From contig NC_057719.1 in assembly GCF_004010195.1 (NCBI RefSeq), positions 23,301,004 to 23,365,003 on the forward strand: a stretch of DNA of 64,000 nucleotides, in the 5' to 3' direction. A program made the position numbers and the translations under genes. Shown in pieces: positions 7,938 through 64,000 of the stretch. Numbering within the stretch: position 1 is the stretch's first letter; each line of letters starts with the position of its first letter. The notes under the pieces are model-generated. The model searched no databases. It saw only the letters and a list, made by a program, of their open reading frames with translations, and was not told the origin of the DNA. Source of the stretch: Chiloscyllium plagiosum (Eukaryota).

Positions 7938-8332
7938 TCACACTAAATGCATTATGGCATCACTAATTTTGCAACATGTTTCAGCTTGATGATGAAACAT
8001 TCAGTGAGGATCTGCCACATAACTCTAAAGTGCGTTGGTTGTCACAAGGACAAATACTTGTAAAACTCTTAACTATGTGAAAACAAATCACAAGGTTTTT
8101 TTGAGGAACTGAATGAACCACGTGAATTGTCAAGAGAGGATTTCTGCAGAAATGCTGCATTTTCGTGTGACATAATGTCAAAGCAAAATGATCGGAATTT
8201 GTTCTGCGAGGTGGAACTATATGTGGCTAAACATCAAGGCATTTCACAAAAAGCTGACCTTTTTCAAAACTCTCCTTACTCAATTAGAACTTTCAGCTGA
8301 ACACTTTCCTGAGCTGGCAAAGATAATTAATG

Positions 8333-8541
8333 CTGAAAATGTGTTGCTGGAAAAGCGCAGCAGGTCAGGCAGCATCCAAGGAACAGGAGAATCGACGTTT
8401 CGGGCATAAGCCCTTCTTCAGGAATGCTTATGCTCGAAACGTCGATTCTCCTGTTCCTTGGATGCTGCCTGACCTGCTGCGCTTTTCCAGCAACACATTT
8501 TCAGCTCTGATCTCCAGCATCTGCAGCCCTCACTTTCTCCT
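8333..8541. mobile_element. Penelope-derived fold-back mini-element with hammerhead; 15-bp TSD
   Basis: TSD caaagataattaatg at 8318-8332 and 8542-8556; 80-bp inverted arms 8332-8411/8426-8505. Confidence 0.9.
8390..8425 (-). ncRNA. Minimal type I hammerhead ribozyme motif
   Basis: Minus strand ATTC-CTGAAGA-A-GGGC/TTAT/GCCC-GAAA-CGTC-GATT. Confidence 0.7.
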
Positions 8542-10624
8542 CAAAGATAATTAATGAACAGGATACAAGCAAATCATTAAGGAAATGCAACGTGAAAGAA
8601 TACACAGCTGTCCTAGAGTCCCTGATTGAAGAATACAATGAAAAGTTGGCAGATTTTGAGAAACATGATCTCACCCTGAAATTAGCTTTTCAACCTTACC
8701 TGGTTGATACCTGCAAAGCACATGATGACTCACTGATGGAATTGATTGAGTTCTCAGAAGATAATGATATTCTGAAGACTCTATTTGACGCTAAAAAGGA
8801 TCACATTGAAATATGGAAAAATGTCTTTGAATACTCACATCTACGTCAACCTGCTCGTCAAATGCTGTCTTGTTTTGGCACAACCTGTTGTTGTGAATCA
8901 ACATTTTCGTATGTGGCACAAATTATAACCTGCTTGCGATCTCAAATGATGGATATTCACCTGGAAGACCAATTAAAGCTACATTCAACGATGTTGGAAT
9001 CACCCATCTGATTCCTATCTCGCAATAAGCAATCACAAAAAAAGTAATTAAATGGTCTGCTGTCTATGTCTTTCACTTATTATTAGTTCTATTGTCAACT
9101 TTGCCAGAGGAGGAACCAGGTATAAGTGGCCCACAAGTCTCCTCCCAAGAGGTGATCAGGCCCTCCACCTCCAACCTGTCTGATACTCTCATCCCTATGG
9201 TGGTTGAAGCCAAGAGGGTGTACCTGCCACTGGCAAGGACTCACTTCATGTGGGTCCTCTGGAGGTTGCCCGACCAGTCCTCTAAGGCCTACTGTAGGGC
9301 AGGCTCCCTTCAATCCAAGTTGTGCATCCCAAGTCTGCATTGGTCAGATAAGAAAGGTGACTTTCTAAGACACATTGGTGGCATGGGTGACTGTTCATTG
9401 GAAATAAGTTCTTAATGTTGTAAATATATGTTCTGTTTTCAGCAATGTCTGTCTAGTCATAAGTGCAACGTTGCAGGTACTGAAGCTACCCATTCTTATC
9501 CCTTCACAATGTTCCATTGACCAAGTTGTGAGGTGAGGGACTGCTGCAGCCCCTTCAGGACCATTGCTTTTACAACTGTTTGGGGATCAGCTGGTGGCAA
9601 GGGGGAATCAGGAGGGTTTTTAGCTATAGAGATACCCAGGAATTAGACATGTTTTTAACCTGTCCAGCCTTTCATATCGCTACCAAATCTCCATATCTAT
9701 TTTAAGAGATGGAGACAATTGTCCAGGGAGCTGGGAACTGCCCATTAAAATTTAACCTTCCCAGGCAGTTCCTGCACAGTCAGTGTGTCGACTTGTCTGG
9801 GGATCCCATTACAAACCTTCAGGAGTCTGTCCAAGTATCAGGAAACTGGGGCCATTTTATGCATGAAATACACTGCTAAATCTGCTCAATACACAGTGAA
9901 ATTATGGACATGCAGTTGCTAATTTGCAAATGAATATTAATGAAATGATCTTTGTTCCATTCCCTAAATTCATCACCCTCTTGTATATTAATCAATGACA
10001 TCATTTAACAACACCATTCTTCACATTAAGTGGTTTGAAATCTGTGCTGCGCCAGGTGCAGACTATTTAACACTCAAAAAGACTGAAATCTGAATGACAT
10101 CAAGAGCATCCATGTCAACTCTTGTACTTTTATCCTCAGTTGCCTCTGTAGTTACTCATTTCCAGCTTAGCTTCTGATTATTTTGAATCAGGAGAGAAAC
10201 ATTTTTATTTAAAGCAGCAAGCAAATAGAGATTCATTTCGAGCACCTCATAAATAATATTTTTTTGCAGGATGATTGATCATTGAGATTCTCTGCACCAC
10301 AGAGGACCAGCTGAAAGTAATTGCAATAATATTGTACAGTAAATTACTACTTACAAGGGAGGGGTCATGCAATGGGGCTTTTGTATTATGTTTTGAATAA
10401 ATTCTGCCTAATTGTAGACTTTGAGTGGTGCATGGAACCATATAATGATATGCTCTGTACTTTAGCAAATTGTATGTGTTTGTAAGCTATAAAGAACCAT
10501 TCAATTGAACCCCAGCTGTTCAGTAACTAAATTCATACAGTAAACGCAATCGCTATCAGATAAGGTGCTGAACTTCTGTTTAACGGATTCTGGATAATTC
10601 CTTCCTCAATGCTTCGGGAAAATT

Positions 10625-10740
10625 CATCCTCATGTCATTACTATTTATGTTACTTAACTCTGTGATCTGCCTGTATTGCTTGCAAGACAAAGCTTTTCAC
10701 TGTGCCCCGGTACACGTGACAATAAATTCAATTCGATTCA
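10625..10740 (+). mobile_element. Rex1/Babar-like LINE extreme 3' end
   Basis: gacaaagcttttcactgtgcc..acgtgacaataaattcaattc matches the reverse complement of 19808-19880. Confidence 0.7.
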
Positions 10741-11094
10741 GATCATTGCAGTTCATGCACATTTGCTGATAAGTCAGATTTAAATAATGTCAGTATTCTA
10801 TTTTTGCTAAGCTTGTCACAGTTTTGTTCTTACAATTTTTTCTCCAGGTCAGTTAGATGGGAATATTTTTTAAATGTACAGAATAAGCCAACCATGTACA
10901 TTGTAACAGAGTGACAACCAGGAAGCACTTTGTGTAAATTTAGTCAGAGAGTGCTAATTTGGGAAGTATACAAAGCAAAGCTAAAGAAATATTTGATCCT
11001 TATCATCTTCAATAAAAAGAAAATCCGGCAAGAAAGTTAGCAAAAAAATTCAGCAGGGAATAAATAGAACGCGAGTGATGAAAAATATGAATTT

Positions 11095-11330
11095 ACAACC
11101 ACAAAGAATGCTGGAGAAAACAAACAAGTTGGCATGATCTATGGAGAGGCAAACCGAGATAACATTTCAAGTCCAATAGGACATCTTCAGAACTGGACCG
11201 GAATAGTGTTGTGATGGGGAATAATACTGAACTCAAAGCATTTTTTCTCTCTACAGATGTTGCCAGACCTGCTGAGCTTCTCTAGCACTCTCGATGTTTG
11301 TTTCAGATTTCCAGCATCCAGCTTTTAGCT
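11095..11330. mobile_element. Old Penelope-derived inverted pLTR pair
   Basis: Left part gctggagaaa..aacatttcaagtcc..tcttcagaac is minus-oriented; right part cagacctgctgag..cagatttccagcatc is plus-oriented; diverged. Confidence 0.6.
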
Positions 11331-11519
11331 GTGTGTACGTTACAATGTCATTCAGTCACTCCAGTTGGTTCTGTTTATTCAGCAGTTATCTAATCAGTGT
11401 CTTTTTTAATGCTAACATTTTTGAAACTCTATTTTTCCCCTACACTTCCAGGTGGGAAGAGTTTATTTTGTTGCATTTATTGCAGATTCCGGGTATTAAC
11501 AAATACAGTGTTCAGCAAT

Positions 11520-11860
11520 AGGACGGCACGATAGCTCAGTGGTTAGCTCTTCTGCTTCACAGCGCAAAGGACTTGGGTTTGATTCTACCCACAGGTGACT
11601 GTGTGCAGTTTGCACATTCTCCCTCTGTCTACACAGGTTTCCTCCAAGTGCTCTGGTTTCCTCTCACAGTCCAAAAATGTGCAGGTTAGGTGGATTGGCT
11701 ATGCTAACTTTCCCTGTAGTGTACAGAGTGTGGATGTTAGGTGAATTAACTATGGGAAATGCAGGGTTACAGAGGTGGGTATGAGTGGGATGCCCTTTGG
11801 AAGATTAGCTTGGACTTGATGGGCCAAATGGCCTCATTCCACACTGTAGGTATTCAATAA
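11520..11860 (+). mobile_element. HE1-type V-SINE (diverged)
   Basis: tRNA head, V-domain, CR1-like tail. Confidence 0.85.
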
Positions 11861-14124: not shown

Positions 14125-14570
14125 TTAGAGAGAGGTTGAATAGGCTGGGGCTGTTTTCCCTGGAGCGTCAGAGGCTGAGGGGTGACCTTATAGAGGTTTA
14201 AAAAATCATGAGGGGCATGGATTGGATAAATAGACAAGGTCTTTTCCCTGGGGTGGGGGTGTCGAGAACTAGAGAGCATAGGTCTATGGTGAGAGAGAAA
14301 AGATACAAAAGAGACCTAAGAGGCAACTTTTTCATGCCGAGGGTGGTGCATGTGGAGAATGGGTTGCCAGAGGAGATGGTAAAGGCTTGTACAACTGCAA
14401 CATTTAAAAGGCATCTGGATGGGTATATGAATAGGAAGGGCTTGGAGGGATAAGGGCTAGATGCTTGTAGGTGGGACTAGATTGGGTTGGGAAATCTGGT
14501 CAGCATGGATGAGTTGGACTGAAGAGTTTATTTCCATGCCATACATGTCTATGTCTCTATGGCTCCATGA
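14125..14570 (+). mobile_element. CR1 (HER1-like) 3' fragment
   Basis: Homologous to 7500-7937. Confidence 0.9.
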
Positions 14571-14574
14571 ATAT

Positions 14575-17156: not shown

Positions 17157-17358
17157 GGCGGCATGATGGCTCAATGGTTAGCACTGCAGCCTCACAGCGC
17201 CAGGGAACCTGGTTCAATTCCCACCTTGGGCAACTGTCTGTGTGGGGTTGCATATTCTCCCCATGTCTCATGGGTGTCCTCCCACAATCCAAAGATGTGC
17301 AGGCCAGGTAAATTGGCAATGCTAAATTGCCCATAATGTTAGGTGCGTTAGTCAGGAG
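17157..17358 (+). mobile_element. HE1 SINE 5' part
   Basis: Head and V-domain, ends at gcgttagtcaggag where a Penelope tail begins. Confidence 0.85.
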
Positions 17359-17401
17359 AAAGTGAGGGCTGCAGATGCTGGAGATCAGAGCTGAAAATGT
17401 G
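17355..17401 (-). mobile_element. Penelope pLTR tail fragment
   Basis: Reverse complement of the end of the 8333-8541 element. Confidence 0.85.
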
Positions 17402-17691
17402 GTCTTGCCAAAAACAAGGCTAAACTAGTTAGACCACATAAAATATATTTGTTCCCCTTTTTGAAGGAAATACACACTGTATTGGAGGCAGTCCTGAGAA
17501 TGCTCTCAAGGTTAGTATTGGGTATGAAAGGACTTTCAGGAGAAGTTCAGTGGAGCTGGACTGTAATCATTGGAGTTTAGAAGAAAGTAAAGCACCTTTG
17601 TTGAAACATGTAAGATTCTTCATGGACTTGATATAGCAGACAAGGAAAGGCTGATTAGAATGAAAGAGCAGAATCTCAGAATAAGAGGCCG
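17402..17691 (+). mobile_element. Old CR1 RT C-terminal fragment
   Basis: Diverged ggaggcagtcctgaga..tcattggagtttagaaga..aatctcagaataagaggc. Confidence 0.6.
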
Positions 17692-18003
17692 TTAGATTCC
17701 TTATAGTGTAGGAACAGGCTCTTCAGCCCAGCAAGTCCAAACTGACCCTCTGAAGAGTAACCCACCCAGACCCATTTCCCTCTGACTAATGCACATAACA
17801 CTATGGTCAATTTAGCATGGCCAATTCACATGACCTGTACATCTTTGGATTGTGGGAGGAAACCGGAGCATCTGGAGGAAACCCATGCAGACATGGGGAG
17901 AATGTGCAAACTCCAAACAGACAGCCGCCCGAGGCTGAAATCGAACTTAGGTCCCCGGTACTGTGAGGCAGCAGTGCTAACCACCGAGCCACCATGCCAC
18001 CCC
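17692..18003 (-). mobile_element. HE1-type V-SINE
   Basis: Full-length homolog of 1698-2009. Confidence 0.9.
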
Positions 18004-18007
18004 ATTA

Positions 18008-18130
18008 TTAGATAGATTATCTACAGTATGGAAACAGGCCCTTCGGCCCAACGTCCACACCGACCCCAACCCCCGGAGAGTAACCCGCCCAGACCCATTC
18101 CCCTACCCTATGTTTACTCCTGACTAACGC
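18008..18130 (-). mobile_element. HE1 SINE 3' part (continuation of 17157-17358, now inverted)
   Basis: Minus strand begins with the same 14-mer gcgttagtcaggag. Confidence 0.85.
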
Positions 18131-18220
18131 TGAAAATGTGTTGCTGGAAAAGCGCAGCAGTTCAGGCAGCATCCAAGGAGCAGGAGAATTGCTGTTTTGG
18201 GCATGAGCCCTTCTTCAGGA
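18129..18220 (-). mobile_element. Penelope pLTR arm with mutated hammerhead
   Basis: Near-identical to 8332-8423; core GAAACGTC mutated. Confidence 0.85.
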
Positions 18221-18223
18221 GGG

Positions 18224-18752: not shown

Positions 18753-18984
18753 TTACCTTGGTCAGTAGCCTCAAGTGTTGTACCTAATCACTCACCTTCT
18801 AAAAGTCCTATCCTGTGTGCACCTCCTCAAAACTTCATCATAATTTGCCTTTCTTGTAGCTATGCTGATTCTGCTTGATCATGTTTTATATTTCAAAATA
18901 CTCTGGCATACTTCAAAATATGTGCCCTTGACAATTGACTCTTACATTTTCCCAATACAGTTGTTAAACTAACAGGCCTGATGT

Positions 18985-25160: not shown

Positions 25161-25269
25161 TTAATGATGTTGATTGCAAGATCCATCAATTTTTGGGGAT
25201 TGATTAATTCCATGGTGAGTTTATTTCAAACAAAAGAAATTAAAAGTTATAAAACAAATATTTCAGCAG

Positions 25270-25394
25270 GAGAAAGTGAGGTCTGCAGATGCTGGAGATC
25301 AGAGATGGAAATGTGTTGCTGGAAAAGCGCAGCAGGTCAGGCAGCATCTAGGGAACAGTAGAATCGACGTTTCGGGCATTAGCCCTTCTTCAGG
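25270..25394 (-). mobile_element. Solo Penelope pLTR mini-element with intact hammerhead core; 14-bp TSD
   Basis: TSD aaatatttcagcag at 25256-25269 and 25395-25408; minus strand CTGAAGA-A-GGGC/TAAT/GCCC-GAAACGTC. Confidence 0.9.
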
Positions 25395-25544
25395 AAATAT
25401 TTCAGCAGAGCAACTAGTTTCAGTGGATGCTGCTGACATATGCCCAGCCAGACAGACTGGTCGGTTATAGCCATATACACACAGCAACTGGAGTCTTTAA
25501 ATGTAAAGTCTCTTCAAGAGAAAGGTATGCACACAATTATCATA

Positions 25545-27074: not shown

Positions 27075-28090
27075 TAAGGATGAACAGCACGGAAACAGAC
27101 CCTTTGGTTTAATTCATCCACACCAAACAGATATCCTAAATTAGAGTAGTGCTGGAAAAGCACAGCAGGTAGAACAGCATCCGAGGAGCTGGAAAATCAA
27201 TGTTTCAAGCAAAAGCCCTTCATCAGGAATGATTTTTGCCCAAAACGTTGATTTTCCTGCTCCTTGGATGCTGCCCTACCTGCTGTGCTTTTCCAGCACC
27301 ACTCTAATCTTGATTCTAATCTCCAGCATCTGCAGTAGTACCCACTTCCACCTAAATATCCTAAATTAATCTAGTCCCATTTGCCAGAACTTGGCCCATA
27401 TCCCTCTAAACCCATCCTATTCTTGTACCCATCTAGATACCTTTTTAAATGTTGTAATTGTACCAGTATCCACCACTACCTCTGGCAGCTCATTCCATAT
27501 ACACACTGCTCTCTGTGTGAAAATGTTGCCCCTTAGGTTACTTTTAAATCTCACCCCTCTCACCTTAACCCTATGCCCTCTAATTCTGGACTCCCCCAAC
27601 TCAGGGAAAAGAACTTGTCTGTTTACTGTATCCATGCCCCTCATGATTTTGTACACTTCTATAAGGTCACCCTTCAGCCTCTGACACTCCAGGGAAAACA
27701 GCCCCAGCCTATTCAGTCTCTCCCTATAGCTCAAATCCTCCAAACCTGGCAACATCCTTATAAATCTTTTCTGAAACTTTTCACGTTTCACAACATCCTT
27801 CCTGTTGGAGGGAGACCAGAATTGCACACAATATTCCAACAGTGGCCTAACCAATGTCCTGTGCAGCCACAACATGACCTCCCAACTGCTGTACTCAATA
27901 CTCTTACCAATAACAGAAAGCATAACAAATGTCTTCTTCGCTATCTTGTCTACCTGAGACTCCACTTTCGAGGAATTACGAACCTGCACTCCAAGGTCTC
28001 TTTTTTCAACAACACTCCCCAGGACCTTACCATTAAATGTATAGGTCCTGCACTGACTTGCCTTTCCAAGTGCGGCACCTCACATTTATT
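27075..28090 (-). mobile_element. CR1 (HER1-like) 3' fragment
   Basis: 190-aa open stretch with LVRPLLEYCVQFWSP; 3' UTR interrupted by a Penelope mini-element. Confidence 0.9.
27144..27355. mobile_element. Penelope-derived fold-back mini-element; 13-bp TSD
   Basis: TSD atatcctaaatta at 27131-27143 and 27356-27368; inverted arms meeting at caggaat. Confidence 0.85.
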
Positions 28091-28428: not shown

Positions 28429-30115
28429 ATCTACTATTACTCTACTACTGATTATGATGTAGCAATAATATCACTTGGCAATTACCTCCCCTTAAAGATT
28501 GCTAAAACAAAACTCATATATTAATGAAATTTGATGAGCCATGTTTACTCCCACTCACCACGTTCACTTCAGAAAAGATTCTGGAATAAGCATTTCTCAT
28601 ATCTTGGCAGTCTCCAAAACAAAATATTTCTGCCTGATGTACAGCAACAGCAGTTGTCACTCCATTCCTGCCCTGCAGTGAGTCCCTGATGTTGCTTCAG
28701 TGACTCCAGAACCGCTGGGTTTCATGGCAAAACTTTCAAAAAATCCTAGTTTCTTCACAAAACCAACTTTCTAAGCAAACCTCCTTTATAATCAACTGCA
28801 ATGGACAGGCTACAAGGATCAATGGGCAAAAAAACAACTCTTCAGGCAAATACGATCCCTTAACCTTCAAATGGTCAGTGAAAACAAGGAAAATGCCACC
28901 AAAACCCTCTGATGTTCACCTTGAAGTGTGGAAGACATTGATATTAATAAGTGGGAGGAGCTTATGCCAATTATTCGAAACAGCAGCAACTCAACAATCA
29001 GTTAGTATCAGGCTTTGAATCCAAATGCATTCATTAGAAGGCAGAACATCATCTCAGAGGGAAGAAAAGGAAACAAATCCTGATCTCTGAAAATCACTTA
29101 ATTTTGGTAAGTCCTGCCACATAAGCTCTCATGTTTGGGTAGACCATCTCCTAAATAGACACGGCAAACCCATGACCGTGAGCAGTTGTCATCTGTGCTG
29201 ACAAATGGACCTTACACTGGGACCTGAGTGCCCTGGGCTGTGTCCATATCCAATCTCTATGAAGTGGAATTGAGAAGAAAACTTGAGTAATGCCAAATAA
29301 CCAGATAATCTTTTAAGAATCGGAAACAGTAATAATAGCCTCCGTTCATTTAGTTTTAAAGGATAATATTCTTTTTAAGGCAGCGCTCTTCCAGAGTTAA
29401 ACCTTCTTCAGGCATTGAGACTTCACAGGATCATGCACTCCTGATGAAGAGCAATACTATAATAGACACTGTTCAGATAAATATGCACAGCAGCGTGTTT
29501 TTTTATCCATTGACTTGAATAGCTGGAAGATCAGGGACTGTCAGCCTGTGATTTCCTGCACACCCTGATTGAGGAAATCAACCCTTACCTCAGTGCAGAA
29601 AGATCAATTTAAGGAAAAGTGTCTTGAAACCAATTCAGTTAAGTTTCTCAAGTATTTTTGTTGAAGCTAGCACATCTGTCAGCAACACGGGACATCTAGA
29701 CAGATAACACATTAGTTGTGAAGCTGCTGTTATGGGAGCTTGTAAAGACAACATGACATGAATATGACCCCATCTGTCAACTGAACTACAGTGAGGAGTA
29801 TACACCATTCGCCTGTGGAGAAAATAACATGACACAAAACACATAAACCTATAAAAATGACAAGGAAAATAGATACTTTGCTCCTCATGACAACATTTTT
29901 TAACAACCTAATAGCAGAATGAAATTGCATTGAAAATTTCAGTCCACTAGGAAAAAGGCAGAAAAAAAATTGTTCCGACAGGGAGATGCCATCCTGAAGA
30001 ACAACTTATTACTGTTATTATTTACACATAGAACACCTACAGGGGGAGAAAAAAATGAGTAAATTTTGAGAAAGTAGATAAATTACTTCAAGAGCCGGAC
30101 CTGATTTTCAGTCTT

Positions 30116-30192
30116 TTGCCCAAAACGTGAATTCTCCTGCTCCTCGGATGCTGCCTGACCTGCTATGCTTTTCCAGCACCACACTCTTGACT
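30116..30192 (+). mobile_element. Penelope pLTR fragment; 15-bp TSD
   Basis: TSD ctgattttcagtctt at 30101-30115 and 30193-30207. Confidence 0.85.
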
Positions 30193-30216
30193 CTGATTTT
30201 CAGTCTTGTCCAAGCT

Positions 30217-33150: not shown

Positions 33151-34570
33151 CAGAGATTCTTCAATTTAATTAATAGCCTTATCGAAAGCAAACCCTTCAC
33201 TTCAAAACATCTTGCCAAGATAGCAAATCTGTCTCCAGGACATTTTTGATGCCAGTAGTTCTTTATGTTGCGGCAACTCTTTCAAGATTTTATGGTCTCA
33301 TGCATTTTCAATCCCTGTAATAATTTTGATTCTAAAACAGTTTTTACATTCCTCTACTTATGAAGCTGTATGGTGTGTAAGAAACTAGAAGATTCCTAAG
33401 CCAAAGATTTCTTTTAACTCTCTGTACTGCCCCATTTGGCTTACTGACTCAGCAACTGGATTACTTTTCTAAAATCCTTCGATGACAATAAATTCTTTTG
33501 GACATCCAAACACATAACATCCACCAGTTCACCTCTATTCAGAGCATATGTTACTTCCTCATGGAACTCCAATGCATTAATTAAATATGATTTCCTTTTC
33601 TGCCATTAATTATCCAGAGCCTGGATCCCCCAGTTGTATCTCAGTTGACCGTACCACCAACAGTGGCCATTGGTGATGCTGCAAAGCAATGAAGTGCTCA
33701 CAGCCTCTGATTGGTTCACAAAACCTTGCAGGCAAATCTCCCACAACTGGAGTTCACGATCTCAGCAAATGTGTGTTGTTTGAATAATCAATTGGCACTT
33801 AATGTGGTGGACATTCGCAAGAAGAGGTGAGGCCGAACTCTCTCTGACTCTCCAACCAATGGATGAGATCTCCCCTCCTCACCTCTCCCATTACCCATTA
33901 TATTCCCAAGTGGGAACATTTGATAACTGTCTTTGTAAGCTTGTCCAGAAGCATTCTGTGCATATTATAAAAGTTGTTAATTACTTTGCCTAATTTCAAA
34001 AATGGCAACTTGTGCAATTGGAGCTTCATTCTGTTGTGTGGCTGGCATCACAAATTGTAATATACAGGAGGATGTGCCTTACATCAAAATGGCACAAAAT
34101 CAGGATTACTCCAAATACTTGAGGAGTTTGGCACTTTTTTCCTATCTGTGGCACATGTGAGGTATGGACATGCTTTTCACTAATCTTTATTGAATTCTGC
34201 TTTTTGTCTCCTATTGTAAGGTCCAAGCTTTCTGCACCAAAACATGAACTTTTCATTCTCAGAGAAAATTCCAAGCTGCTAATTATTTTGTAGAATGACC
34301 AACACTACAATTTAATGTTAGCTACTTAGTAACACATTGAGTTGTCACTTTATTCTTTCTAATGACATTTGAATCCACAAGTAGTGGATTCATTCAATGT
34401 TGCCTACTTTAAATTGCAGACACTTGGATATGAATGCTTCGGATTCTATTCTGCCTGTGTTGACATGTGTCTTTTCACGTTGGCATATATGTGATGTGCT
34501 TGTCTGGCTTAGATGTCTTCACCTGATTGATGAGCTTTTCTTGAGTTGACCTGTCTTGCTCCATCCAATG

Positions 34571-34715
34571 CTAAAAAATGTGTTGCTGGAAAAGCGCAGC
34601 AGGTCAGGCAGCATCCAAGGAGCAGGAGAATCGACGTTTCGGGCACGAGCCCTTCTTCAGGAATCAGAAGCCTAACGAAGCTCTGATCTCCAGCATCTGT
34701 AGTCCTCACTTTCTC
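34571..34715. mobile_element. Penelope-derived inverted mini-element with intact hammerhead core (34629-34664, minus); 16-bp TSD
   Basis: TSD cttgctccatccaatg at 34555-34570 and 34716-34731. Confidence 0.9.
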
Positions 34716-35246
34716 CTTGCTCCATCCAATGTACTGTAGCTTGCTGGTCTTGACCTGATATTTTGGGCGAATGTAAAAGTAGGTCACTATGGCCCACATA
34801 TTGCTAGTGACAGCAAAACCATCAGCATTCACCATCTTTACACTTCTCAAAAGCCAGTAACTGCTTCAGGAGTCTACACATCTGCAGTTAAATGCAGAAT
34901 TCTCGAAGTCTTTGTCAGAAGGTCTACATTTCTCCATGGGGTGCATGGCCAAGAGTATCATTAATTGGAAATCACTGAAATGACAGAAAAGTCTCCTTCT
35001 ATGCTATTAGTCACTGAGTAAAAACTCTTGAAACAATGCATTTTGTTCAATAAAGTGTAAGTGGGTTTCAAATAGTATATTAATGACATAAATACAACTG
35101 GAAAACCTCTCTAGGCTTGCTTTACATTAAGATTCAAGGGAAGGTGCAGGAAGTTGAGAGGGGATTTGAGAAAATTATTTTAACCCAAACTCACAGCCTA
35201 AAAGGGTAGTTGAAGAATGTACCATCAAGATGTTTAGGAAGTTGGG

Positions 35247-47985: not shown

Positions 47986-48198
47986 ACATATTATCATGGT
48001 TTACATATATCATTATTGCTTTTCAATCAGCTAAACATCACCTAATGGAAATAAAAATCAGCAAGTTTGTTAAAACAACTATACGATAGAGGATCGTGAG
48101 CAAGAATCTTCCTATTATATTGGTGCAGCCCATTGATTTCTATTGAGATTTGTGTTAGAGAATCTTAAAGACTTTTAGTTAGAGGTGGATAGTGCCAA

Positions 48199-48486
48199 GG
48201 GTCTAGATTAGAGTGGTGCTGGAAAAGCACAGCAGTTCAGGCATCATCCGAGGAGCAGGAAAATCGACGAAGTCCACATTGATGCCCTGGGGTTGAAGTG
48301 TTCCGAGGCAGAAGATGAGGCGTTCTTCCTCCAGACGTCGGGTGGTGAGGGAGCAGCGGTGAAGGAGGCCCAGGACCTCCATGTCCTCGGCAGAGTGGGA
48401 GGGGAGTTGAAATGTTGGGCCACAGGGCAGTGTGGTTGATTGGTGCGGGTGCCCCAGAGATGTTCCCTAAAGCGCTCTGCTAGGAG
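48199..48486 (-). mobile_element. Penelope (Neptune-type) GIY-YIG C-terminus fused to pLTR; 15-bp TSD
   Basis: LAERFREHLWGTRTNQPHCPVAQHFNSP then (frameshift) MEVLGLL..RRLEEERLIFCLGTLQPQGINVDF; TSD ggtggatagtgccaa at 48184-48198 and 48487-48501. Confidence 0.9.
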
Positions 48487-49016
48487 GGTGGATAGTGCCA
48501 ACTATGGCAAGTAAGCAAACATGAATGCACATAACCTGAAGTCAATAGCGAGCAAAACTGCAGTTTGTATGAAGGCAGTCAATCGATGCACACACATTGA
48601 AACTGAACATTGTTTACTGCACTTGAAGCTCTTCGGCACACTTTTGACTGAATGCGCTGCAGATGGTATTTATAATCAACCTGTTTAGTGATATCATTAC
48701 AAGTCTCTGGAGCAGATGGGATATGAACAAAGCCCAGAAGTAAGGACACTACTATTGCACCTTAAAAGTCCTCCAGTTAGGCTCAATACTGCCATGAAAT
48801 AAATGCTAACAGGACATTTCAATATACAGTATTCTTATGTACTGACTCAATTATGTTAGGAACAGTTTATATCATCATTCTTAGAATGTGTTGTTTAATA
48901 AAACAACTTGCTTTCCAAAGATAAAAAAAACTACAATTGAGTCCTACCTTTCAACAATAATAGATGTAAAATGAATATGGCTGGACACTAGTTGCCAGAC
49001 CAGTTTTATTCATGGT

Positions 49017-49108
49017 CAAGATTAGAGTGGTGCTGGAAAAGCACAGCAGGTCAGGCAGCATCCGAGGAGCAAGAAAATCCATGTTTCGGGCAAAAGCCCT
49101 TCTTTTGC
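49017..49108 (-). mobile_element. Penelope pLTR mini-element; 17-bp TSD
   Basis: TSD ccagttttattcatggt at 49000-49016 and 49109-49125. Confidence 0.9.
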
Positions 49109-50730: not shown

Positions 50731-50880
50731 CATCGAAGAGTGTGGTGTGGAATTCCTGATGAAGGGCTTATGCCCAAAATGTCGATTCTCCTGCTCTTCG
50801 GATGCTGCCTAACCGGCTGTGCTTTTCCAGCACCACACTCTTCGACTCTGATCTTCAGCATCTGCAATCCTCACTTTCTC
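50731..50880 (+). mobile_element. Penelope pLTR mini-element with short 5' inverted piece; degenerate 15-bp TSD
   Basis: ctttgcctgttacat 50716-50730 vs ctttgcctattatat 50881-50895; attc-ctgatga-agggcttatgccc-aaaatgtc (core mutated). Confidence 0.85.
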
Positions 50881-52075
50881 CTTTGCCTATTATATGTTTA
50901 CTGTTAATGACTTCAGGAGAAACCTATCTCTTTGCAATTAACGTTTGAATAATGGAGTTTTCTATTCTTTCAACCTCACACAGCATTAGGAGATTAATTA
51001 ATCAACAATGTTGTTTTGAATTTCAAACTGTTTTTTTTTTCTATTTCTTGATTTTAAAACTATTTAATTATCTCAAAAGTGATTGCACCAGCAGGACCTT
51101 TGGAGGGAGTTTTAACTTGCTCTGCTTCATGGAAATGGGGTTAGCTCTATTACTGCAAACCTTTCATTTTAGCATTGCGTATATCAGTGGCAGATGCAGT
51201 GTCCATGGAAATTACACTGGACCTTATCGAGAAGGGTTATTTCAGGACCTATCATATCATTTGAGCAGGAGTTGGCATAACCTTTGAGTGGAGAATTAAG
51301 GAGTTGGTAGGTTTCTGGGCAAGAAGATGCTGCAGGTCATATGCTTAAGGTGTTTTTTTTTTGTTTGTTCACTTCTGTACCTTCCAATTACATATTAGCC
51401 TGTGTAGGATTGATTAGGTCAGTTGGCCGAATGGCTGTTCTCTAATGCAGTGTGGTACTAATAACAAGGGTTCAAATCCTGCAGTGGCTAAGGTTATGGT
51501 AAATGCCCTGCCTTGTCCCTTGCTTGAGGGACCATCATTGCAAATTCTCTGTCTCTAATGGGCAGGGGAGACTAGGATGACCTCACCTTTACTTTGTCTG
51601 TGTAAATCAAATAGAATATAGTTTCCAAAAGATAATGGTGAGGCCAAGAATGTTAATGGATGGACTGACAAAACAAGGCCAAGAACAATTTGAAGACTTT
51701 TTTTTATATATGTGGTATGAGCTCATTGTGATTGCTGTTACTTCGGAACATGGAGAGAATTTTGGTGAGACTTCCAGGTCTGAGAGACTTCCTTGAAAGA
51801 AAAACTTAGAAAGACACCAGTTTGAATATCATCACTGCATGCTTGTAGTAAAGAATTAGTGACATAGAGCAACTTTGGCTCCAAGTGTGGCATTTGTGCC
51901 ACAACAACTTTCTGATCACCTGGCAACTCCAAGAAAACACGTCCACTCAGAGTGCAGACACCAGATAGTGAATACTGTTTCTTTTATACAGCCCATAGGC
52001 CTCACTAACTGCTGAGCTTCCTCAGAAGCTCAGAGACTGTGAGTATTGGAACAGAGTTGGTGTGGCTGGAAGTAT

Positions 52076-52399: not shown

Positions 52400-52445
52400 A
52401 GACTAAAAAAGGGAAAACAATGTAAACAGCAGGAAATATCTTATG

Positions 52446-52915
52446 TCAAAAAGTGTGGTACTGGAGAAGCACAGCTGGTCAAGCCACATTAGAGGAGCAG
52501 GAGAGTCGACATTTCAACCATAAGCTCTTCATCAGGACTGTGGGGAAGGAAGATGGACAGGTGGGACAGTTCAAGTGGGTGGTGTTGAGTTGGAGGGTTG
52601 GATCTGGGATAAGATGGAGGGGAGTGGGGAGTATGAGGAAACTGGTGAAATCGACATTGATCCCCCTTGTGGTTGGAGCGTCTCAAAGCAGAAGATAATG
52701 CCTCATTCCCATCAACCAATACCTTCATCTACCTATCGCATTCCCAGCTACCTTCCCCCCCAGTCCCAAACCCCTTCCATTTATCTGTCAGCCCCCTTGC
52801 CCCAGCCCCACATTCATGATGATGTACTTGTGCTCAAAACGTTGACTCTCCTGCTCCTCAGATGCTGTTGACCTGCCATACTTTTTGACTCTGGTGTCCA
52901 GCATCCGCAGTCCTA
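52446..52915. mobile_element. Penelope inverted pLTR pair with 3' coding remnant
   Basis: Minus-oriented pLTR/3' end to ~52700 followed by plus-oriented 3' UTR/pLTR; both hammerhead motifs degenerate. Confidence 0.75.
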
Positions 52916-56455: not shown

Positions 56456-56952
56456 AAAAAGTGGCTTCTATCCTCATGTGACATGCAAATCTGCTAAACA
56501 TGTAAAAAGGCTATGACCATACCAAGAAAAGGCAGGTTAGGTGCCTCATCATGGATGCTACTTGGGAGTGATGTGAAGTCCTTCAAAGGGAAATTGTGTG
56601 AAACAGACATACATAGTACAGATTGAAATCTATTTGTAATCATGGTACCATGCGTGTGAAATGCACACAGTGTCCATCCACATGGCATTCAAACCTTGTT
56701 TACAAGCGATCTTAGTCAGTTCATTGGCCATTACAAACTGATCATGGTCATCTCTGTAAAGCAGAATTAATTGCAGGTGACCTGCAGGTTTCAATTGCAA
56801 CCAATATTCACCAAGGCAATTGAAGATATCACAGACTACACAAGAGCTGATGTCCTCTAGTCTAGTAGAGGACCATGAGTATTCACCAAAAGATTTGCAT
56901 ATGAAATATGACTTTCTTAGCTGATGCGTGAGTGGGGACAAGGTTTTAATAA

Positions 56953-57156
56953 TCGAAAAGTCTGGCACTGGAAAAGCATAGCAGGTCAGGCAGCATCCAA
57001 GAAGCAGATAAATCGATGTTTTGGGCATAAGCCCTTCATTAGGAATGTTGGGGGGTAGGAAACGGGGGCTGAGAAATAAATAGGACGGTGGGGGTGGGGC
57101 TGGGGGAATCCTATTTATCTCTCAGCAACTTGCAGTCTGCAGTCCGCACTTTTTCC
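56953..57156. mobile_element. Penelope inverted mini-element; degenerate 15-bp TSD
   Basis: acaaggttttaataa 56938-56952 vs acaagggtttggtaa 57157-57171; pLTR arm on minus strand, tail on plus. Confidence 0.75.
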
Positions 57157-57644
57157 ACAAGGGTTTGGTAACCATACAGCACTTACAATCTCCTGCCACA
57201 CAAGCAGTGTATACAGTGTACACTGGAATAAGTTGTGTTGTTTCAAAAGTCCATGTAGATGCATTCCCCAGCCCTCCTTGTCAGAATCCTCCCAATCCCA
57301 CTCGATGGTGTATGCATACAAAACAATCGTTTGTATGTGATGCAAAAGCTGACTCTTCCCATTACCAAGAACCAGTTCTGTTTCTGATATTCTCCAAGTA
57401 GTGTTATTCGTACCATGACCAATAGATCCAGCCACAACAAGGATCATCAATCCTGTGGCCATGTTACTGTGAAAGCTCAGAGAAGTTGATGAGAATAAGA
57501 TGCAGCAGGAGCCCTGGGACCATCGGAAATCCTGCTATGCCTCTCCAGGGTAGCATGATGGAAACCAAGCTTTGCCATACACAGAGGCATCACAAGGAAG
57601 TAATTAGAGTAATTATTACTGAACAAAAAGAATGAGAGAAAATA

Positions 57645-58625: not shown

Positions 58626-60374
58626 ACTGGGAGAGATTTTTTCAAGAGAAAGATTTAGAAATACATCAGAGTTTCAGTATCATCACTTTCTTCTTGTATA
58701 AAGTAATTTCTGCCTTGAGGTATCTTTGGCTCGGAGGCAGAACTAGGGACAGTACACATAGGTTCTTCAGTTTCCTAGTGACAGCCTCTTTGTGACAGAA
58801 TATCCCTCACTTCATTTAGGTAAGATAGTTGCCTTAAGTAATTCCTCACTCACCTACCTACAAGTAGGAAGTGGTCAAGGGCTATTTTGTCCCCCAGTGC
58901 TGAATGAGGGAGGCAAAGTTTGAGGGATTTGAGAAGGAGGCAAGTAGATCAGGAATAGTGGGGGATGGGAGATGGGAAGCAGGGTATGGACCAAGATCAT
59001 GTATTTGCTGAAAGGAAGTTGACTGGCAGAAGTGGCTGATCATTAGGAGTATGCCCATGAGACAGGGTTGACCTGAAGGGATGAGCCTCGGCATAGTTAC
59101 AAACTCAACTAAGTATATTTTTAACAACATGGTGGTGGTCTGCAATAGCGTCACCTTCAGGTGATATATCTGTAGAAATGGATTGTTAGAACGATGTCTT
59201 GATGCGCATAAAATACAGTTTTTAGCAGACAGAGAAACCTTGGCAGTAAATGACTTGGAGAACTGATTGTAAAAGAAGAGCACTTGAAATTTGTGATTAA
59301 TTCTGAGCTGGAAATCTTCCAACTCCCTAATCTAAATGCCACCTGTGATCTTCTTTCTAGAATTTAATGGCATTAAATGTGTGAAGAGTCCTCTAAATGC
59401 TTTTCCATATTATTTTGGGCTGTAAGAATAAAAATAAAAGATAAGAACTTTCAATCATTAACAGGACGTTCAATTGCATCTGCTTTTTACACTTTATGGA
59501 AGGGTTATCATTGAACACCCTGGAGGAATCCCCAATCTGAGAACTGATGCAGCTGGAGCTAGAAGCAGTGGAGAAGAAACATCTTACATTGCAAAAAATC
59601 AGCACAGTAGGTAATGCATCAGTGAACAGGCAGAAGGCATTGTGAAATAAGTGCAAAATAATCAAACTCTCCAGCCAACATTCAAAATGCCAACACAACT
59701 TAAGAAGTAAATCTGAAAGATAGGGTCAGTTAGTCATGGACCTTTTTTTTATGTGGGCAATTGGCACCATAGGGATGAGCTGTCACAAAGCGCATGATAT
59801 CCAATATGAGATTGATTTGGATTGGAATAAGAAGTGAAAGGAGACTGACAGTGACCTAAATGCTGTAATAAATTAGCTCTAATCAGCTTGGTTAGTTCAA
59901 CAGCCTACACTGTTGAGACGTCTGTGCATCAAAATAGATAGTTTGGCCCCTATACAGTGTTTTCACATCCACCAGATGGAAACCTTGATTCAACATCTTC
60001 TCCAAATGAAAACATCACCCACAATGCAGCATTCCTGTGGTACTACAGTGAGTGTCAGCATAGATTATGATGTCCCATGTAGCTTGAAGCCAAATTCTTC
60101 TAACTCAGAGGCAAGAATATAACCAACCGTGTCAGTAACTGATAACAGGGTTTATCCCTTCATCTCATAATCAGATATTCTCAGCAGGTCTGGCAGCATC
60201 TGTGGAGAGAGAAAAACAGTTAATATTTCAAATCTTGTTTGAATCTTCTTCAGAGCTGAAAGGTGTCAGAATCTTTTTAATACTCTTCTGACTGAGGAAA
60301 GAGGAGGAGCAAAGGGAACAGATGGTATAGAGACACAGTCATGACAAAGGAGTCTTCAGTGGTCATGAAAGAGA

Positions 60375-60640
60375 AAAAGGAGAAAGATTTTAAAAAGACA
60401 TGAGGGCAATGTTTTTACATACCGGGCGGTTCACATGTGGAATGAACTTCTTGAGAAAGTGGAGGATATGGGTACAATCATAACTTTTAATAGACATTTA
60501 CATGAGTACATGAACAGGAAAGATTTGGAAGGATTTGGACCAGGACCAGGCAAATGGGACTAGTTGGTTTGGGATTATGTTCAGAATGGACTGGTGAGAC
60601 CGAGGGCACTGTTTCCATCCTCTATGACTCCATGACTGTA
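60375..60640 (+). mobile_element. CR1 3' end
   Basis: Homologous to 2645-2915. Confidence 0.85.
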
Positions 60641-60889
60641 AATTGAGGTTTAAATGGAGAGATTGGGTCTTCTCCACTATTCATCAAAACACTTCATCCA
60701 GAGCTGTCACAAAGACTGGCCAGGTCTCTTTCATTTCCTAAGAAAATTTAAATTTGATAGTAATGGAGGCAAGATACATGAAATACAGAAAGCTAGCATT
60801 AAAGTATGACAAGTAACTAGGACGCAAATGTTATGCGCTCTTTCATTGCAAAGGATCTGCATTTCAAGTGTAAAGTAATTTAGCCACTA

Positions 60890-61221
60890 CAGGTAGAATA
60901 TCCTTTATTCGAACATCCAAAAACCAAAAAGCTCCAAAATCCGAAGGTTTTTTGTGGAGTTTTTTTTCTCAGTAACAAGGTTGTTTGGTGTGCAAACAGT
61001 TAACCCAAGTCGACACCCACTCGATGTGTGTCACTCAGGTGCGTCTTCAGGGGGGGAGTATGGCCAAGCACCGACGGCGTATTCTTACTTGGAAGTCTGC
61101 TCCTCCAGTAAGATTTTTAAAAATTTCACCATTAAACTGTCACTTATTCTGAAAAATGAAAAATTCTGAATTCCAAAAAACAGCTGGTCCCGAGCATTTC
61201 AGATAAAAGATCATCTACCTG
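60890..61221. mobile_element. Tigger-family MITE (Tigger4/MER46-like ends)
   Basis: TIRs CAGGTAGAATATCCTTTATTCGAA / CAGGTAGATGATCTTTTATCTGAA; TA on both sides (60888-60889, 61222-61223); non-coding; inserted in an old CR1. Confidence 0.85.
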
Positions 61222-62216
61222 TAGTATACAAAGCTTGGAAAATAAAGCCAGATACTGTGTGTGGTTTTGGTCTCTGTTCCCATGGAAGGATATTTTGGAA
61301 GCTGTACAGCAAAGGTTCACTAAACTGACTCCTGAGATGACCAAACTCTCTAGCATTTAGAAGAATGGAAGACGATCTCAATGAAACTTGGAAGATTGTT
61401 TGGTGGTTTGACAAAGTAGTTAGTAAGAGGTTGTTTCATCTCACAGGAGAGTCTGGAACTGGGGTCATGCTTTCAGGATAAGACATTGATCAAGACTGAA
61501 ATGGGGAGGAATTTTTTTCATGGGAGTTTATAAATCTTTGGAATCTTTGGAGTTGATATCAAAAGTAAGCCATGATCATATTGAATAGGAGAGCAAACTT
61601 GAGGTGTCATGTGAGATTCTACTGCTCCTATTTTGTATATTCTCATAGATAATAAATCTTGAAGAAAGAGAGAAGACACTCATTTCCAGTCAGATGAGGA
61701 CTTCACTCCTAATGTTGTGTTTAGATGATAGATTGAATATGACTTCAGTTGAATTTGAAGGATTACTGAAGTAAGAATATCATAGTGGTGGTGAATGATT
61801 GCAGATCAATATTTCCTGACTGAACATCAAGCAGCACTTATATGCTAAGTGTATCATTTCTATATCCTACCAAGAGATGCCTGTGGCTTTTCTGTATTAG
61901 CATGTTACTTGCTGCTAGAATATCAGCAAGGTTGACTATGGCTAAGTACTACTTAGTAATTATTTGATTAATTGACGTGTCAAAGGGAGAAAGATTTCAT
62001 CCTAAAAGCTGATTGTGGCTTAAAGCTCAATTCCCATAACTTGGCAGCTTGTACGTTTTCATAAGCCTTTTGAAAAAACATCAAAAAGTTCGGGATGGTT
62101 TAAACTAGTTTGGCAAGGGGGTGGGAACCAGAGCTACATATCTAAGAGGGGGATAGTTGTAGATGGGGCAGCGACAGGATGTAGTGAATCTATCGGTAAG
62201 GGTTTTCATATGATGA

Positions 62217-62377
62217 GGAGAAAGTGAGGTCTGCAGATGCTGGAGATCAGAGCTGGAAATGTGTTGCTGGATAAGCCCTTATTCCTGAAGAAGGGCTTAT
62301 GCCCGAAACGTCGAATCTCCTGTTCCCTGGATGCTGCCTGACCTGCTGCGCTTTTCCAGCAACACATTTCCAGCTCA
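62217..62377. mobile_element. Penelope-derived inverted mini-element; 15-bp TSD
   Basis: TSD gttttcatatgatga at 62202-62216 and 62378-62392. Confidence 0.9.
62281..62316 (+). ncRNA. Minimal type I hammerhead ribozyme motif (best-formed copy)
   Basis: ATTC-CTGAAGA-A-GGGC/TTAT/GCCC-GAAA-CGTC-GAAT: stem I ATTC/GAAT, intact core, palindromic ACGT in place of stem III; predicted cleavage after C62312. Confidence 0.75.
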
Positions 62378-64000
62378 GTTTTCATATGATGAAACAAAGG
62401 AATCAGTTAAAGTGTGTCTGATTTAACGCAAGGAGTGTCAGAAAAAAGTGATGAACTTAGAGCATGGATCAGTACTTGGAACTATGATGTTGTGGCCATA
62501 ACAGAGGCTTGGGTTTCAAAGGGGCAAGAATGGTTGCTAGACGTTCCAGGGTTTAGAATGTTTAAAAAGAACAGTGAGGGTGGAAAAAGAGGAGGGGGTG
62601 TAGCATTGCTAATCAGAGAGTGCATCACAGCTACAGAAATGAAGGTTGTCAAGGAAGGTTTGTATGGGTGGAAGTTAGGAACAGCAAGGGAGCAGCCACC
62701 TCATTGGGGGTTTTCTACAATCCCCCTAACAGCAGAAGAGAGATTGAAGAATTCATAGGTCAGCAGATTTTGGAAAAATGCTGATATAGCAGGGTTGTTG
62801 TTATGGGTGACTTCAACTTTCCCAATATTGACTGCAACCTCCTTAGTGCAGATGGTTTGGATGGAGCCGTTTTTGTCAGGTATGTTCAGGAGAGTTTCCT
62901 TACTCAGTATATAGACAGGCCGACGAGGGGAGAGGCCATTTTGGATTTGGTGCTCGACAATGAGCCAGTACAGGTGTCAGATCTCGCAGTGCAAGAATAC
63001 TTTGGTGACAGTGACCACAACTGCCTGACATTTACCATAGCCTTAGAGGGGGAAAGGAACAGTTACCAAGGGAAGATATTTAATTGGGGAAAAGGAAATT
63101 ATGACGCTATCAGACAGGAGTTGGGAAGTACAGAATGGGAGCAATTGTTCCACAGAAAGGGAGACTGCTTAAGGAGCAACTGTTGCGAGTGATGCACAAA
63201 TTTGTTCCTCTGAGACAGGCAAGAAGTGGTAAGATTAAGGAGCCTTGAATGCTGAGAACAGAGGAACATCTCACCAAAAGGAAAAAGGCAGCTTATGTAA
63301 GGTGGAGGAATCAAGGATCTAGCACAGCTTTAGAGCATTACAGGCTTACTAGAAAGGAGCTCAGAAATGGACTGAGGAGAGCCAAGAGGGGGCATGAGGA
63401 AGGCTTGTCAAGAAGGATTAGGGAGAACCCAAAGGCATTTTACTCATACGTGAGGAATAAGAGAATGATCGGGAGAAGGTAGGGTCAGTGTGGGATAGCA
63501 TAGGGAACTTGTGTGTGGAGTCTGAGCAGATAGGGAAAGCCTAAATGAGGGACCTTGTTGTGAATGAGAACTTTGAGGAGCTGGGATATAGACTTGAACA
63601 GATCAAGATTGATGAAGTTGATGTGCTGGAAAATATCAAACATTAAGATTGATAAGTCCCCAGAACCAGACCAGGTTTATCATAGGTTGTTCTGGGAAAT
63701 GAGACAGGAGGTTGCTAAGGCGCTGGTGAAGATCTTTGCTTCCTCACTCTCCACGGAGTCGAGCCGGAGAATTGGAGGGAGGCGAACGTTGTTCCTCTTT
63801 TCAAGAAGGGAAATGGGGAAATCCTTGGCAATTACAGACCAGTCACTCTTACGACTGTGGTCAGCAAGTTTTTGGAAAGAATTCTGAGGGATAAGATTTA
63901 TGATTTGGAAAAGCATAGCATGATTAAAGACAGTCAGAATGGCTTTGTGAGGGGCAGGTAATGCTTCACAAATCTTATTGAGTTCTTTGAGGAGGTGACA

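What the first reader, a model, noticed from the sequence alone, without database searches (positions are those of the whole stretch)
8318..62392. Dense family of hammerhead-ribozyme-bearing Penelope mini-insertions behaving like non-autonomous retroelements
Seen: at least 12 related short copies (8333, 17355/18129, 25270, 27144, 30116, 34571, 48199, 49017, 50731, 52446, 56953, 62217), most without coding sequence and most inside their own TSD. Four retain a full core CTGAAGA..GAAACGTC (8390-8425, 25362-25396, 34629-34664, 62281-62316). Stem II GGGC/GCCC is largely kept while its loop varies (TTAT, TAAT, TCGT, TCAT, TTTT). Established: Penelope pLTRs carry minimal type I hammerheads with a palindromic stem III that can cleave as dimers. 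Inference: these could be a SINE-like/retrozyme-like class mobilised by a Neptune-type partner rather than just extreme truncations.
Basis: partly seen in the sequence, partly recalled or inferred. Interest (0 to 1): 0.7.

Follow-up and report, generated by a model that had tools for sequence, protein, structure and literature searches.

The report
Penelope run-off stubs, not retrozymes
These tiny ribozyme-bearing repeats are real and number in the tens of thousands in this genome, but they are end-pieces of an ordinary protein-coding Penelope jumping gene, likely dead-end copies of the front of its RNA rather than a new self-spreading class, and their sharply fixed ends give a testable clue to how such elements likely copy themselves.

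Summary
Observation confirmed: the 12 listed sites exist, 9 have 12-24 bp target-site duplications, and 4 keep a full minimal hammerhead core. They are pLTR pieces of Neptune-type Penelope elements (RT, CX4CxxC linker, GIY-YIG; one young group has over 60,000 exact marker matches). The SINE/retrozyme reading is not supported for these copies: short and long copies share all five main haplotypes, fold-back junctions are 58 different strings in 67, no core lies in tandem, and only 3 of 127 arms begin at the ribozyme cut. Yet they are not smooth truncations: 63 of 127 arms begin 1-6 nt before the core at an initiator-like motif, often after an extra G, and 34 of 38 back-to-back pairs join one arm from each of two 3' end sites 34 nt apart. 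Best reading: dead-on-arrival run-off cDNAs from the 5' end of autonomous RNA, primed on both target strands. A small, truly trans-mobilised multimer family (224-nt unit, 40 junction matches) exists elsewhere in the genome, not here. This scan reached the same run-off reading before on other windows of this and related genomes. Cleavage and the start site are untested.

The parts
8333..8541 (.). Fold-back insertion, young A type: minus arm 8334-8426 (-5..+87, full core 8394-8421) back to back with plus arm 8426-8541 (+10..+125, with tail); 15-bp TSD 8318-8332 / 8542-8556. Positions count from the C of CTGA = 0.
   Evidence: folds as one hairpin, -163.6 kcal/mol, z -22.6
17354..17403 (-). Tail-bearing stub (+76..+126); probably the partner of the 18129 arm
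   Evidence: 14-bp flank repeat at 17345-17358 recurs inverted at 18117-18130
18129..18222 (-). Tail-less arm (-2..+87), core damaged
25268..25396 (-). Solo direct stub (-3..+125), full core 25366-25393, 14-bp TSD 25256-25269 / 25395-25408
   Evidence: identical 127-mers at 6 other genome sites among 40 candidates scored
27143..27355 (.). Older B-type fold-back: minus arm from -6, plus arm from +12; core 27203-27226 damaged; 13-bp TSD 27131-27143 / 27356-27368
30113..30203 (+). Solo stub starting about +11, lacks the CUGA box; about 14-bp TSD
34571..34717 (.). Minus arm 34576-34668 (begins at A-4 after a G; full core 34633-34660) plus tail-only plus arm 34681-34717 (+89..+126); 16-bp TSD 34555-34570 / 34716-34731
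48199..48487 (-). B-type insertion: GIY-YIG C-terminal coding piece 48269-48487 joined directly to pLTR +24..+89 (3' UTR and core deleted); 15-bp TSD 48184-48198 / 48487-48501
49017..49108 (-). B-type tail-less stub (+3..+86), lacks CUG; TSD about 17 bp from 49000 / 49109
50731..50882 (+). Older stub -4..+126 with a 20-nt inverted arm in front; core damaged; 12-bp TSD with 1 mismatch
52445..52914 (.). Old fold-back that includes 3' UTR and the coding end (to 52709); core 52512-52535(-) damaged; no TSD found
56953..57160 (-). Old arm -5..+89 with decayed UTR; core damaged; no TSD found by the search
62216..62377 (.). Fold-back: minus arm 62216-62276 (+65..+125) and plus arm from 62281 (-4..+91, full core 62285-62312, the only one of the four with a 4-bp stem I); 15-bp TSD 62202-62216 / 62378-62392

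Best explanation
The short copies are end-pieces of protein-coding Neptune-type Penelope elements, likely dead-on-arrival cDNAs made when the element's reverse transcriptase starts at one of two internal sites near the front of the element's own RNA and runs off that RNA's predicted capped 5' end. Shown: fixed 3' ends at +84..95 and +119..125; 5' ends peaked at -6..-1; 14-19 bp TSDs; back-to-back pairs nearly always with one arm of each 3' type; same haplotypes as long copies; the same pLTR heading a 3.5-kb RT-GIY-YIG unit. Inferred: (1) transcription starts at the A 4 nt before the core, in an initiator-like motif (TCATTC / CTATTC); (2) the protein binds RNA downstream of +126 and starts cDNA at +92 or +126, as shown for the anole Poseidon element; starting in the 5' pLTR gives a 95- or 130-nt run-off, starting in a downstream tandem pLTR gives the long copies; (3) the enzyme cuts both target strands about 16 bp apart and primes one cDNA on each, one at each start site, and the two cDNA 3' ends are joined by microhomology; (4) the stubs lack the binding segment and are not copied again; (5) the hammerhead rides along and does not define the template ends.
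For: 5' ends: 63 of 127 informative arms at -6..-1, 3 at +27..+30, 0 at -50..-21, 14 at -51 or beyond (14 of 141 arms dropped for gaps or locus edges). Genome-wide exact 26-mers: 61,539 at +65..+90, 56,065 at -3..+22, 16,443 at -13..+12. G before A-4 in 16 of 27 boundaries against 5 of 41 at -3; an extra G marks capped full-length L1 cDNA (PMC11702581, passage). Pairs: 34 of 38 have one arm of each 3' type, 32 of 38 have a 14-19 bp TSD. Five main haplotypes all occur in short and long copies. 58 distinct junctions in 67; the one shared complex junction occurs only twice in the genome. Full unit with 5' pLTR, RT, linker and EN. In vitro precedent: both strands cut and extended, two RT starts that match the tail, 55-60 nt of downstream RNA needed, ribozyme mutants do not affect insertion (PMC11167929, parts 1-2). 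D. virilis Penelope has an internal Inr/DPE promoter in its pLTR (PMC2377424, section 15). The genome's re-mobilised multimers all keep sequence to about +185 or further.
Against: No 5' end of any RNA was mapped; poly(A) single-cell reads gave no start or end pile and cannot show one. The peak is broad (-3 is commoner than -4: 41 against 33 of 122) and partly shaped by TTC microhomology. The extra-G excess is modest (p 0.005 against one third, rows not fully independent). The three 26-mers differ in degeneracy, and long young copies fall in assembly gaps, which overstates the short share. The precedent is a Poseidon, not a Neptune, element, and there RT start did not differ between strands. 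Arkhipova et al. read head-to-head pLTRs as self-priming on an antisense template (PMC3846280, passage).
Confidence: 0.66

Rival explanations
1. The stubs are ordinary 5' truncations of cDNA from long RNA, with a strong stop site just upstream of the core caused by RNA structure, by a paused enzyme, or by microhomology-guided joining, not by the end of the RNA. They would still be dead-end copies.
For: Copies chosen for coding sequence have evenly spread 5' ends; the commonest boundary, -3, coincides with a TTC microhomology between arms; 5' truncation is the rule in these elements (PMC8557442).
Against: The only stable local structure, stem II, ends 12 nt downstream of the peak; the peak also appears in solo copies and at tandem junctions without an inverted arm; the extra G is specific to -4; no arm of 127 ends between -50 and -21.
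Confidence: 0.18
2. One reading: a non-autonomous SINE-like or retrozyme-like class with its own 130-nt transcript (internal promoter in the stub), processed by the hammerhead and mobilised in trans by the Neptune protein.
For: Fixed ends and huge copy number; a stub that begins at -4 would carry an internal promoter; pLTR sequences sufficed for mobilisation in trans in a rotifer (PMC3846280); vertebrate retrozymes derive from pLTRs, including in one cartilaginous fish (bioRxiv 10.64898/2026.07.22.740005); real non-autonomous multimers exist in this genome.
Against: No private haplotype; junctions not shared; no same-strand tandem cores in the window, nearest pair over 1.8 kb apart; 3 of 127 arms start at the cut; stem I carries a U-U mismatch in most cores (GATT 128, GAAT 5 of 158); fold-back copies bury the core in a long hairpin; RNA reads are passengers of host transcripts on both strands, 95% running on into unlike sequence.
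Confidence: 0.08
3. One arm is a true cDNA and the inverted arm arises by snap-back or self-priming (on the cDNA or on an antisense RNA) rather than by priming on the second target strand.
For: Short templated duplications of stem II sequence sit at many junctions; snap-back follows full-length cDNA in R2 insertions (PMC11371274, passages); self-priming was proposed for Penelope (PMC3846280).
Against: Copying back along a +92 cDNA cannot make a +126 arm, and copying a +126 cDNA has no reason to stop at +92; 34 of 38 pairs are mixed and both outer ends abut an intact TSD.
Confidence: 0.08

Closest known systems
Insertions of endonuclease-bearing Penelope-like elements, Neptune type (PMC8557442 passages; PMC3846280 passages)
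   Same: RT then CX2-5CxxC linker then GIY-YIG; partial tandems forming pLTRs; inverted 5'-truncated copy at the 5' end; 30-40 bp tail on one end only; TSDs.
   Different: Here most insertions consist of nothing but the two arms; 5' ends pile up at one spot; the tail asymmetry is counted (34 of 38 pairs). No microsatellite targeting was seen in the window's flanks.
Minimal type I hammerheads of metazoan PLEs (Cervera and de la Pena 2014, PMC4209133, parts 1-2 of 4)
   Same: Core boxes, extra base before stem II, G-C first pair, palindromic ACGU; mostly single motifs ascribed to truncated PLEs; opposite-strand pairs already noted.
   Different: Stem II only 4 bp; stem I of 4 positions with a U-U mismatch in most young copies; copy number far above the 4,000-9,000 reported for coelacanth and Xenopus.
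Anolis Poseidon PAc mechanism (Frangieh 2024, PMC11167929, parts 1-2 of 4)
   Same: Two internal RT starts that define the tail; both strands cut and extended; hammerhead near the unit's 5' end and dispensable for insertion.
   Different: Different clade; the paper does not describe run-off stubs or mixed pairs in the parts read.
Non-LTR retrozymes (PMC7229834 abstract; bioRxiv 10.64898/2026.07.22.740005 main text)
   Same: Non-coding, pLTR-related, type I hammerhead.
   Different: Retrozymes are head-to-tail repeats of 170-400 nt with a core in each unit and abundant linear and circular RNA. The window's copies are solo or head-to-head, 50-210 nt. The genome's 194-430 nt multimers outside the window do fit the genomic definition.
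L1 twin priming and cap-derived extra G (PMC11702581 passages)
   Same: Inverted insertion with intact 12-18 bp TSD and microhomology at the inner junction; extra G at complete 5' ends.
   Different: In L1 the second priming is at a variable internal site and the two arms do not overlap; here both arms start at fixed sites 34 nt apart and copy the same stretch.

Membership tests
EN+ Penelope-like element, Neptune type | RT followed by C-terminal GIY-YIG in elements bearing this pLTR | tested here: met
   RVT_1 E 1e-6 (29.1 bits, cut-off 29.6) and GIY-YIG E 5e-4 (20.8, cut-off 22.6), both just under gathering score; order and contiguity with the pLTR. Frames came from older B-type copies; A and D types show coding pieces only.
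EN+ Penelope-like element, Neptune type | CX2-5CxxC linker between RT and EN (Neptune and Nematis, absent from Penelope/Poseidon) | tested here: met
   CHRRNCKTC in L062 and L052; criterion from PMC8557442.
EN+ Penelope-like element, Neptune type | RT phylogeny inside Neptune | not tested
   No named reference set was on hand; Neptune rather than Nematis is inferred from the vertebrate-like host.
EN+ Penelope-like element, Neptune type | pLTR tandem, inverted 5' copy, 30-40 bp tail | tested here: met
Minimal type I hammerhead | CUGANGA, stem II, GAAA, palindromic ACGU, cut triplet GUC | tested here: met
   4 of 12 window sites; stem II is the only centroid helix in all four.
Minimal type I hammerhead | Stem I of 4-5 bp | tested here: inconclusive
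   Perfect 4 bp only at 62281; U-U mismatch in the other three and in 128 of 158 sampled cores.
Minimal type I hammerhead | Self-cleavage as monomer, dimer or with protein | not testable with these tools
   Needs an in vitro assay; genomic ends give no sign of cut templates (3 of 127).
Non-LTR retrozyme | Head-to-tail tandem with a core in at least two consecutive units | tested here: not met
   None of 12 window sites. Met by multimers elsewhere in the genome.
Non-LTR retrozyme | Unit-length linear and circular RNA | tested here: inconclusive
   One run of raw reads covered the motif; passenger reads only, library unsuited.
SINE-like non-autonomous family | Own lineage: private variants or shared junctions at many loci | tested here: not met
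SINE-like non-autonomous family | Retains the cis element that the partner protein recognises | tested here: inconclusive
   Window copies end at or before +126; the need for downstream RNA is taken from a Poseidon element and from the multimers that keep it, not tested for this protein.

The most novel reading that the evidence does not exclude
Penelope retrotransposition makes a strong-stop-like product: a dimeric enzyme primes both target strands at two fixed RNA sites 34 nt apart and usually runs off the capped start of its own RNA, so that the commonest insertion is a 95-220 bp stub that maps the promoter and both RT starts to the base; only derivatives that keep about 60 nt beyond the distal start become true non-autonomous, retrozyme-like multimers. 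This would tie the tail, the inverted pLTR, solo minimal hammerheads and the birth of retrozymes into one mechanism.
Probability: 0.55. Interest if true: 0.58.

Novelty: new member of a known kind. Interest (0 to 1): 0.33.

Why it matters
As a class of element this is ordinary: solo and opposite-strand minimal hammerheads from truncated Penelope elements were described in 2014, and the inverted pLTR with a one-sided tail is standard. The value is mechanistic. How Penelope elements form inverted pLTRs and finish insertion is open, and tens of thousands of young stubs give base-level predictions (start site at -4, RT starts near +92 and +126, a binding segment at +126..+185, one start per target strand) that the published in vitro assay could test directly. 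It also explains why most genomic minimal hammerheads are single and probably inert. The same reading has been noted by this scan on several other windows, so this window adds counts, not a new object.

Tried and rejected
Rfam scan: no hammerhead family; mir-680 hit (33.5 bits, gathering 104) is the fold-back hairpin. DNA search with window 8470-8541 returned nothing because its words are too common; pattern counts were used instead. Ribozyme cut as the source of 5' ends: rejected, 3 of 127; earlier notes e1-9938807 and e1-9162017 that report ends at the cut are not borne out as a main class here, though a minor class cannot be excluded. Re-mobilised fold-back units: the one shared complex junction (L279, L282) occurs only twice, 114 kb apart. 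A possible diagnostic variant at +34 in the first search was a ranking effect: UTR-bearing copies carry it too. Folding energies of the four monomers are no better than shuffles (z -0.65 to +0.31): uninformative. Sequencing runs: no RNA holder listed; of two raw-read runs, one laid 1,239 reads and one none; the second lay was not used. The all-type census (61 of 102 segments start at -13..+8) is inflated for older types whose UTR had no reference, so the A-type count is the one relied on. A DPE-like match at +28..+31 of the predicted start was noticed but not tested. No RT tree was built. Look-up by sequence among earlier findings returned nothing.
Full report
Setting. The window is C10:23301004-23365003 of a 3.56-Gb assembly. 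Its repeats look like those of a shark-like genome; that label is recalled and echoed by earlier notes, not tested. Positions below count from the C of the core's CTGA = 0; the predicted cut lies between +27 and +28.

Observation. All listed sites are pieces of one pLTR family. Four full cores, five loop variants and TSDs at 9 of 12 sites are confirmed (0 of 100 random spans scored 10 or more). Two sites carry coding sequence. Sixty evenly spaced 10-kb samples held about 78 insertions in 583 kb, so 12 in 64 kb is about 1.4 times the mean (my arithmetic) and unremarkable.

Parent element. Thirty loci found with the coding piece at 48268-48488 have evenly spread 5' ends and mostly run on into the same pLTR. 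Walking upstream gave a full unit of about 3.5 kb in L097, headed by a hammerhead-bearing pLTR that continues into the ORF region. Stop-free frames match RVT_1 and GIY-YIG just under gathering score, with a CX4CxxC linker that marks Neptune and Nematis (PMC8557442, passages). At least four pLTR types occur: young A (6 window sites), older B and C, and a youngest D not in the window.

Ends. 3' ends fall at +84..95 or +119..125 (140 of 141 arms), the known tail, which in the anole element is the interval between two RT start sites (PMC11167929, parts 1-2 of 4). For 5' ends I used A-type arms from the even samples, from 70 loci picked only by a 3'-side 26-mer in the first 4.2 Mb of C1, and from the window: 141 arms, 14 dropped for gaps or edges. 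Of 127, 63 start at -6..-1, 9 at -20..-7, none at -50..-21, 14 further up, 41 downstream of 0, of which 3 at +27..+30. Whole-genome exact 26-mer counts agree: 61,539, 56,065 and 16,443 at +65, -3 and -13; the patterns differ in degeneracy. The peak sits on an initiator-like motif with A at -4 (consensus recalled). At boundaries exactly at -4 the preceding base is G in 16 of 27 (6 palindromic junctions removed), against 5 of 41 at -3; an extra G reflects the cap in full-length L1 insertions (PMC11702581, passage). D. virilis Penelope starts inside its pLTR from an internal promoter (PMC2377424, passages and section 15).

Pairs. Of 38 back-to-back pairs (one arm counted twice), 34 join one arm of each 3' type (p 3e-7 against one half) and 32 have a 14-19 bp TSD; 0 of 150 random spans exceeded 7. 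Both outer ends are RT-start ends, so each target strand primed one cDNA. This fits the in vitro finding that both strands are cut and extended and that the protein is a predicted dimer, although there the start did not differ by strand. Of 52 unpaired arms only 14 showed a TSD of 12 bp or more, partly because their partners escaped the anchor motif.

Is it an independent class? Among 293 arms, five polymorphic sites define five main haplotypes; each occurs in short and long copies in like proportion (short/long in loci not chosen by haplotype: 39/11, 25/13, 15/5, 14/5, 8/2; two rare ones, 3 and 2 arms, were short only). Fold-back junctions are 58 strings in 67, and the only shared complex one occurs twice. 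No window core has a same-strand neighbour within 1.8 kb. Stem I has a U-U mismatch in 128 of 158 sampled cores (filtered for stem II pairing, so stem II conservation there is partly built in), and fold-backs bury the core. Raw RNA reads lie on both strands, 95% run on into unlike sequence, depth is 80-390 over the pLTR and 1-7 beyond +126, and no start or end pile was called; the library cannot show ends.

A real non-autonomous family lies elsewhere. A pattern that reads through +126 has 865 matches; many are short partial tandems and internal deletions. One deletion junction, giving a 224-nt unit, has 40 matches on 25 contigs. Of 20 loci read, a 224+320 composite recurs at 6 with different 3' flanks, 224+236 at 2 and 224+430 at 2, and one holds a 194-nt tandem. 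All are D type, have a perfect 4-bp stem I and keep sequence to about +185 or further, matching the 55-60 nt that the anole protein needs downstream of its start. These fit the genomic definition of non-LTR retrozymes (bioRxiv 10.64898/2026.07.22.740005, parts 1-3 of 5; PMC7229834, abstract). None is in the window.

Mechanism. Shown: end positions, pair asymmetry, TSDs, shared haplotypes, parent structure. Inferred: start site at -4, binding segment beyond +126, run-off from the 5' pLTR, priming on both strands, microhomology joining, no further mobility, passive ribozyme.

What is known. Single and opposite-strand minimal hammerheads from truncated elements, with low activity, are in PMC4209133 (parts 1-2 of 4). 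Inverted pLTRs with a one-sided tail are in PMC8557442 and PMC3846280 (passages), the latter read as self-priming. Snap-back is described in PMC11371274 (passages). Seven paper searches listed no paper on run-off stubs or mixed pairs in Penelope elements; the library lacks most subscription papers, including older reviews that I recall and did not see. This scan's notes hold 303 findings with my search words, several with the same reading, two in this genome, and several on deleted multimers; my reading was recorded before the look-up.

Verdict. Real, abundant, a new member of a known kind; the proposed class is not supported for these copies; the end statistics are a useful handle on mechanism. 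Interest 0.33.

Noticed in passing
L257-L276 (G000; e.g. L258, L260, L264, L268): Young D-type, internally deleted, non-coding multimers (units of 194, 224, 236, 320, 430 nt, one hammerhead each, perfect stem I) that moved as composites to many loci; 40 matches to the 224-nt junction on 25 contigs. Best retrozyme candidates in this genome.
   Followed up: partly
window 17345-18222: The 17355 and 18129 pieces share a 14-bp flank repeat in inverted orientation with about 730 bp between them: one fold-back insertion whose arm and flank were inverted, or a mis-oriented contig at the hairpin.
   Followed up: partly
window 48202-48487: TSD-flanked copy in which the end of the GIY-YIG coding region is joined straight to +24 of the pLTR, dropping the UTR and core: a template switch during one insertion.
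   Followed up: partly
   Followed up: no
window 6688-9011: Decayed hAT-like transposase frames (weak Dimer_Tnp_hAT match, E 0.005) into which the 8333 copy has inserted.
   Followed up: partly
L279 and L282 (G000:C1:1800957 and 1914771): Two fold-backs 114 kb apart share a complex 55-nt junction found nowhere else, yet differ in flanks and in one 3' end; unexplained (gene conversion or one enzyme complex acting twice).
   Followed up: partly
L097 reverse strand 1800-2100; window 34509-34865(-), 56630-57121(-): A reading frame stays open across the hammerhead and tail into the N-terminal ORF region in a B-type full unit; whether the core is translated, as in the anole element, was not resolved.
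   Followed up: no
L176:105-917(-): A second, unrelated Penelope RT with Poseidon-like motifs (recalled) also occurs in this genome.
   Followed up: no
L107-L136: Many long young copies break into assembly gaps at the same base, so this assembly under-represents long copies.
   Followed up: yes
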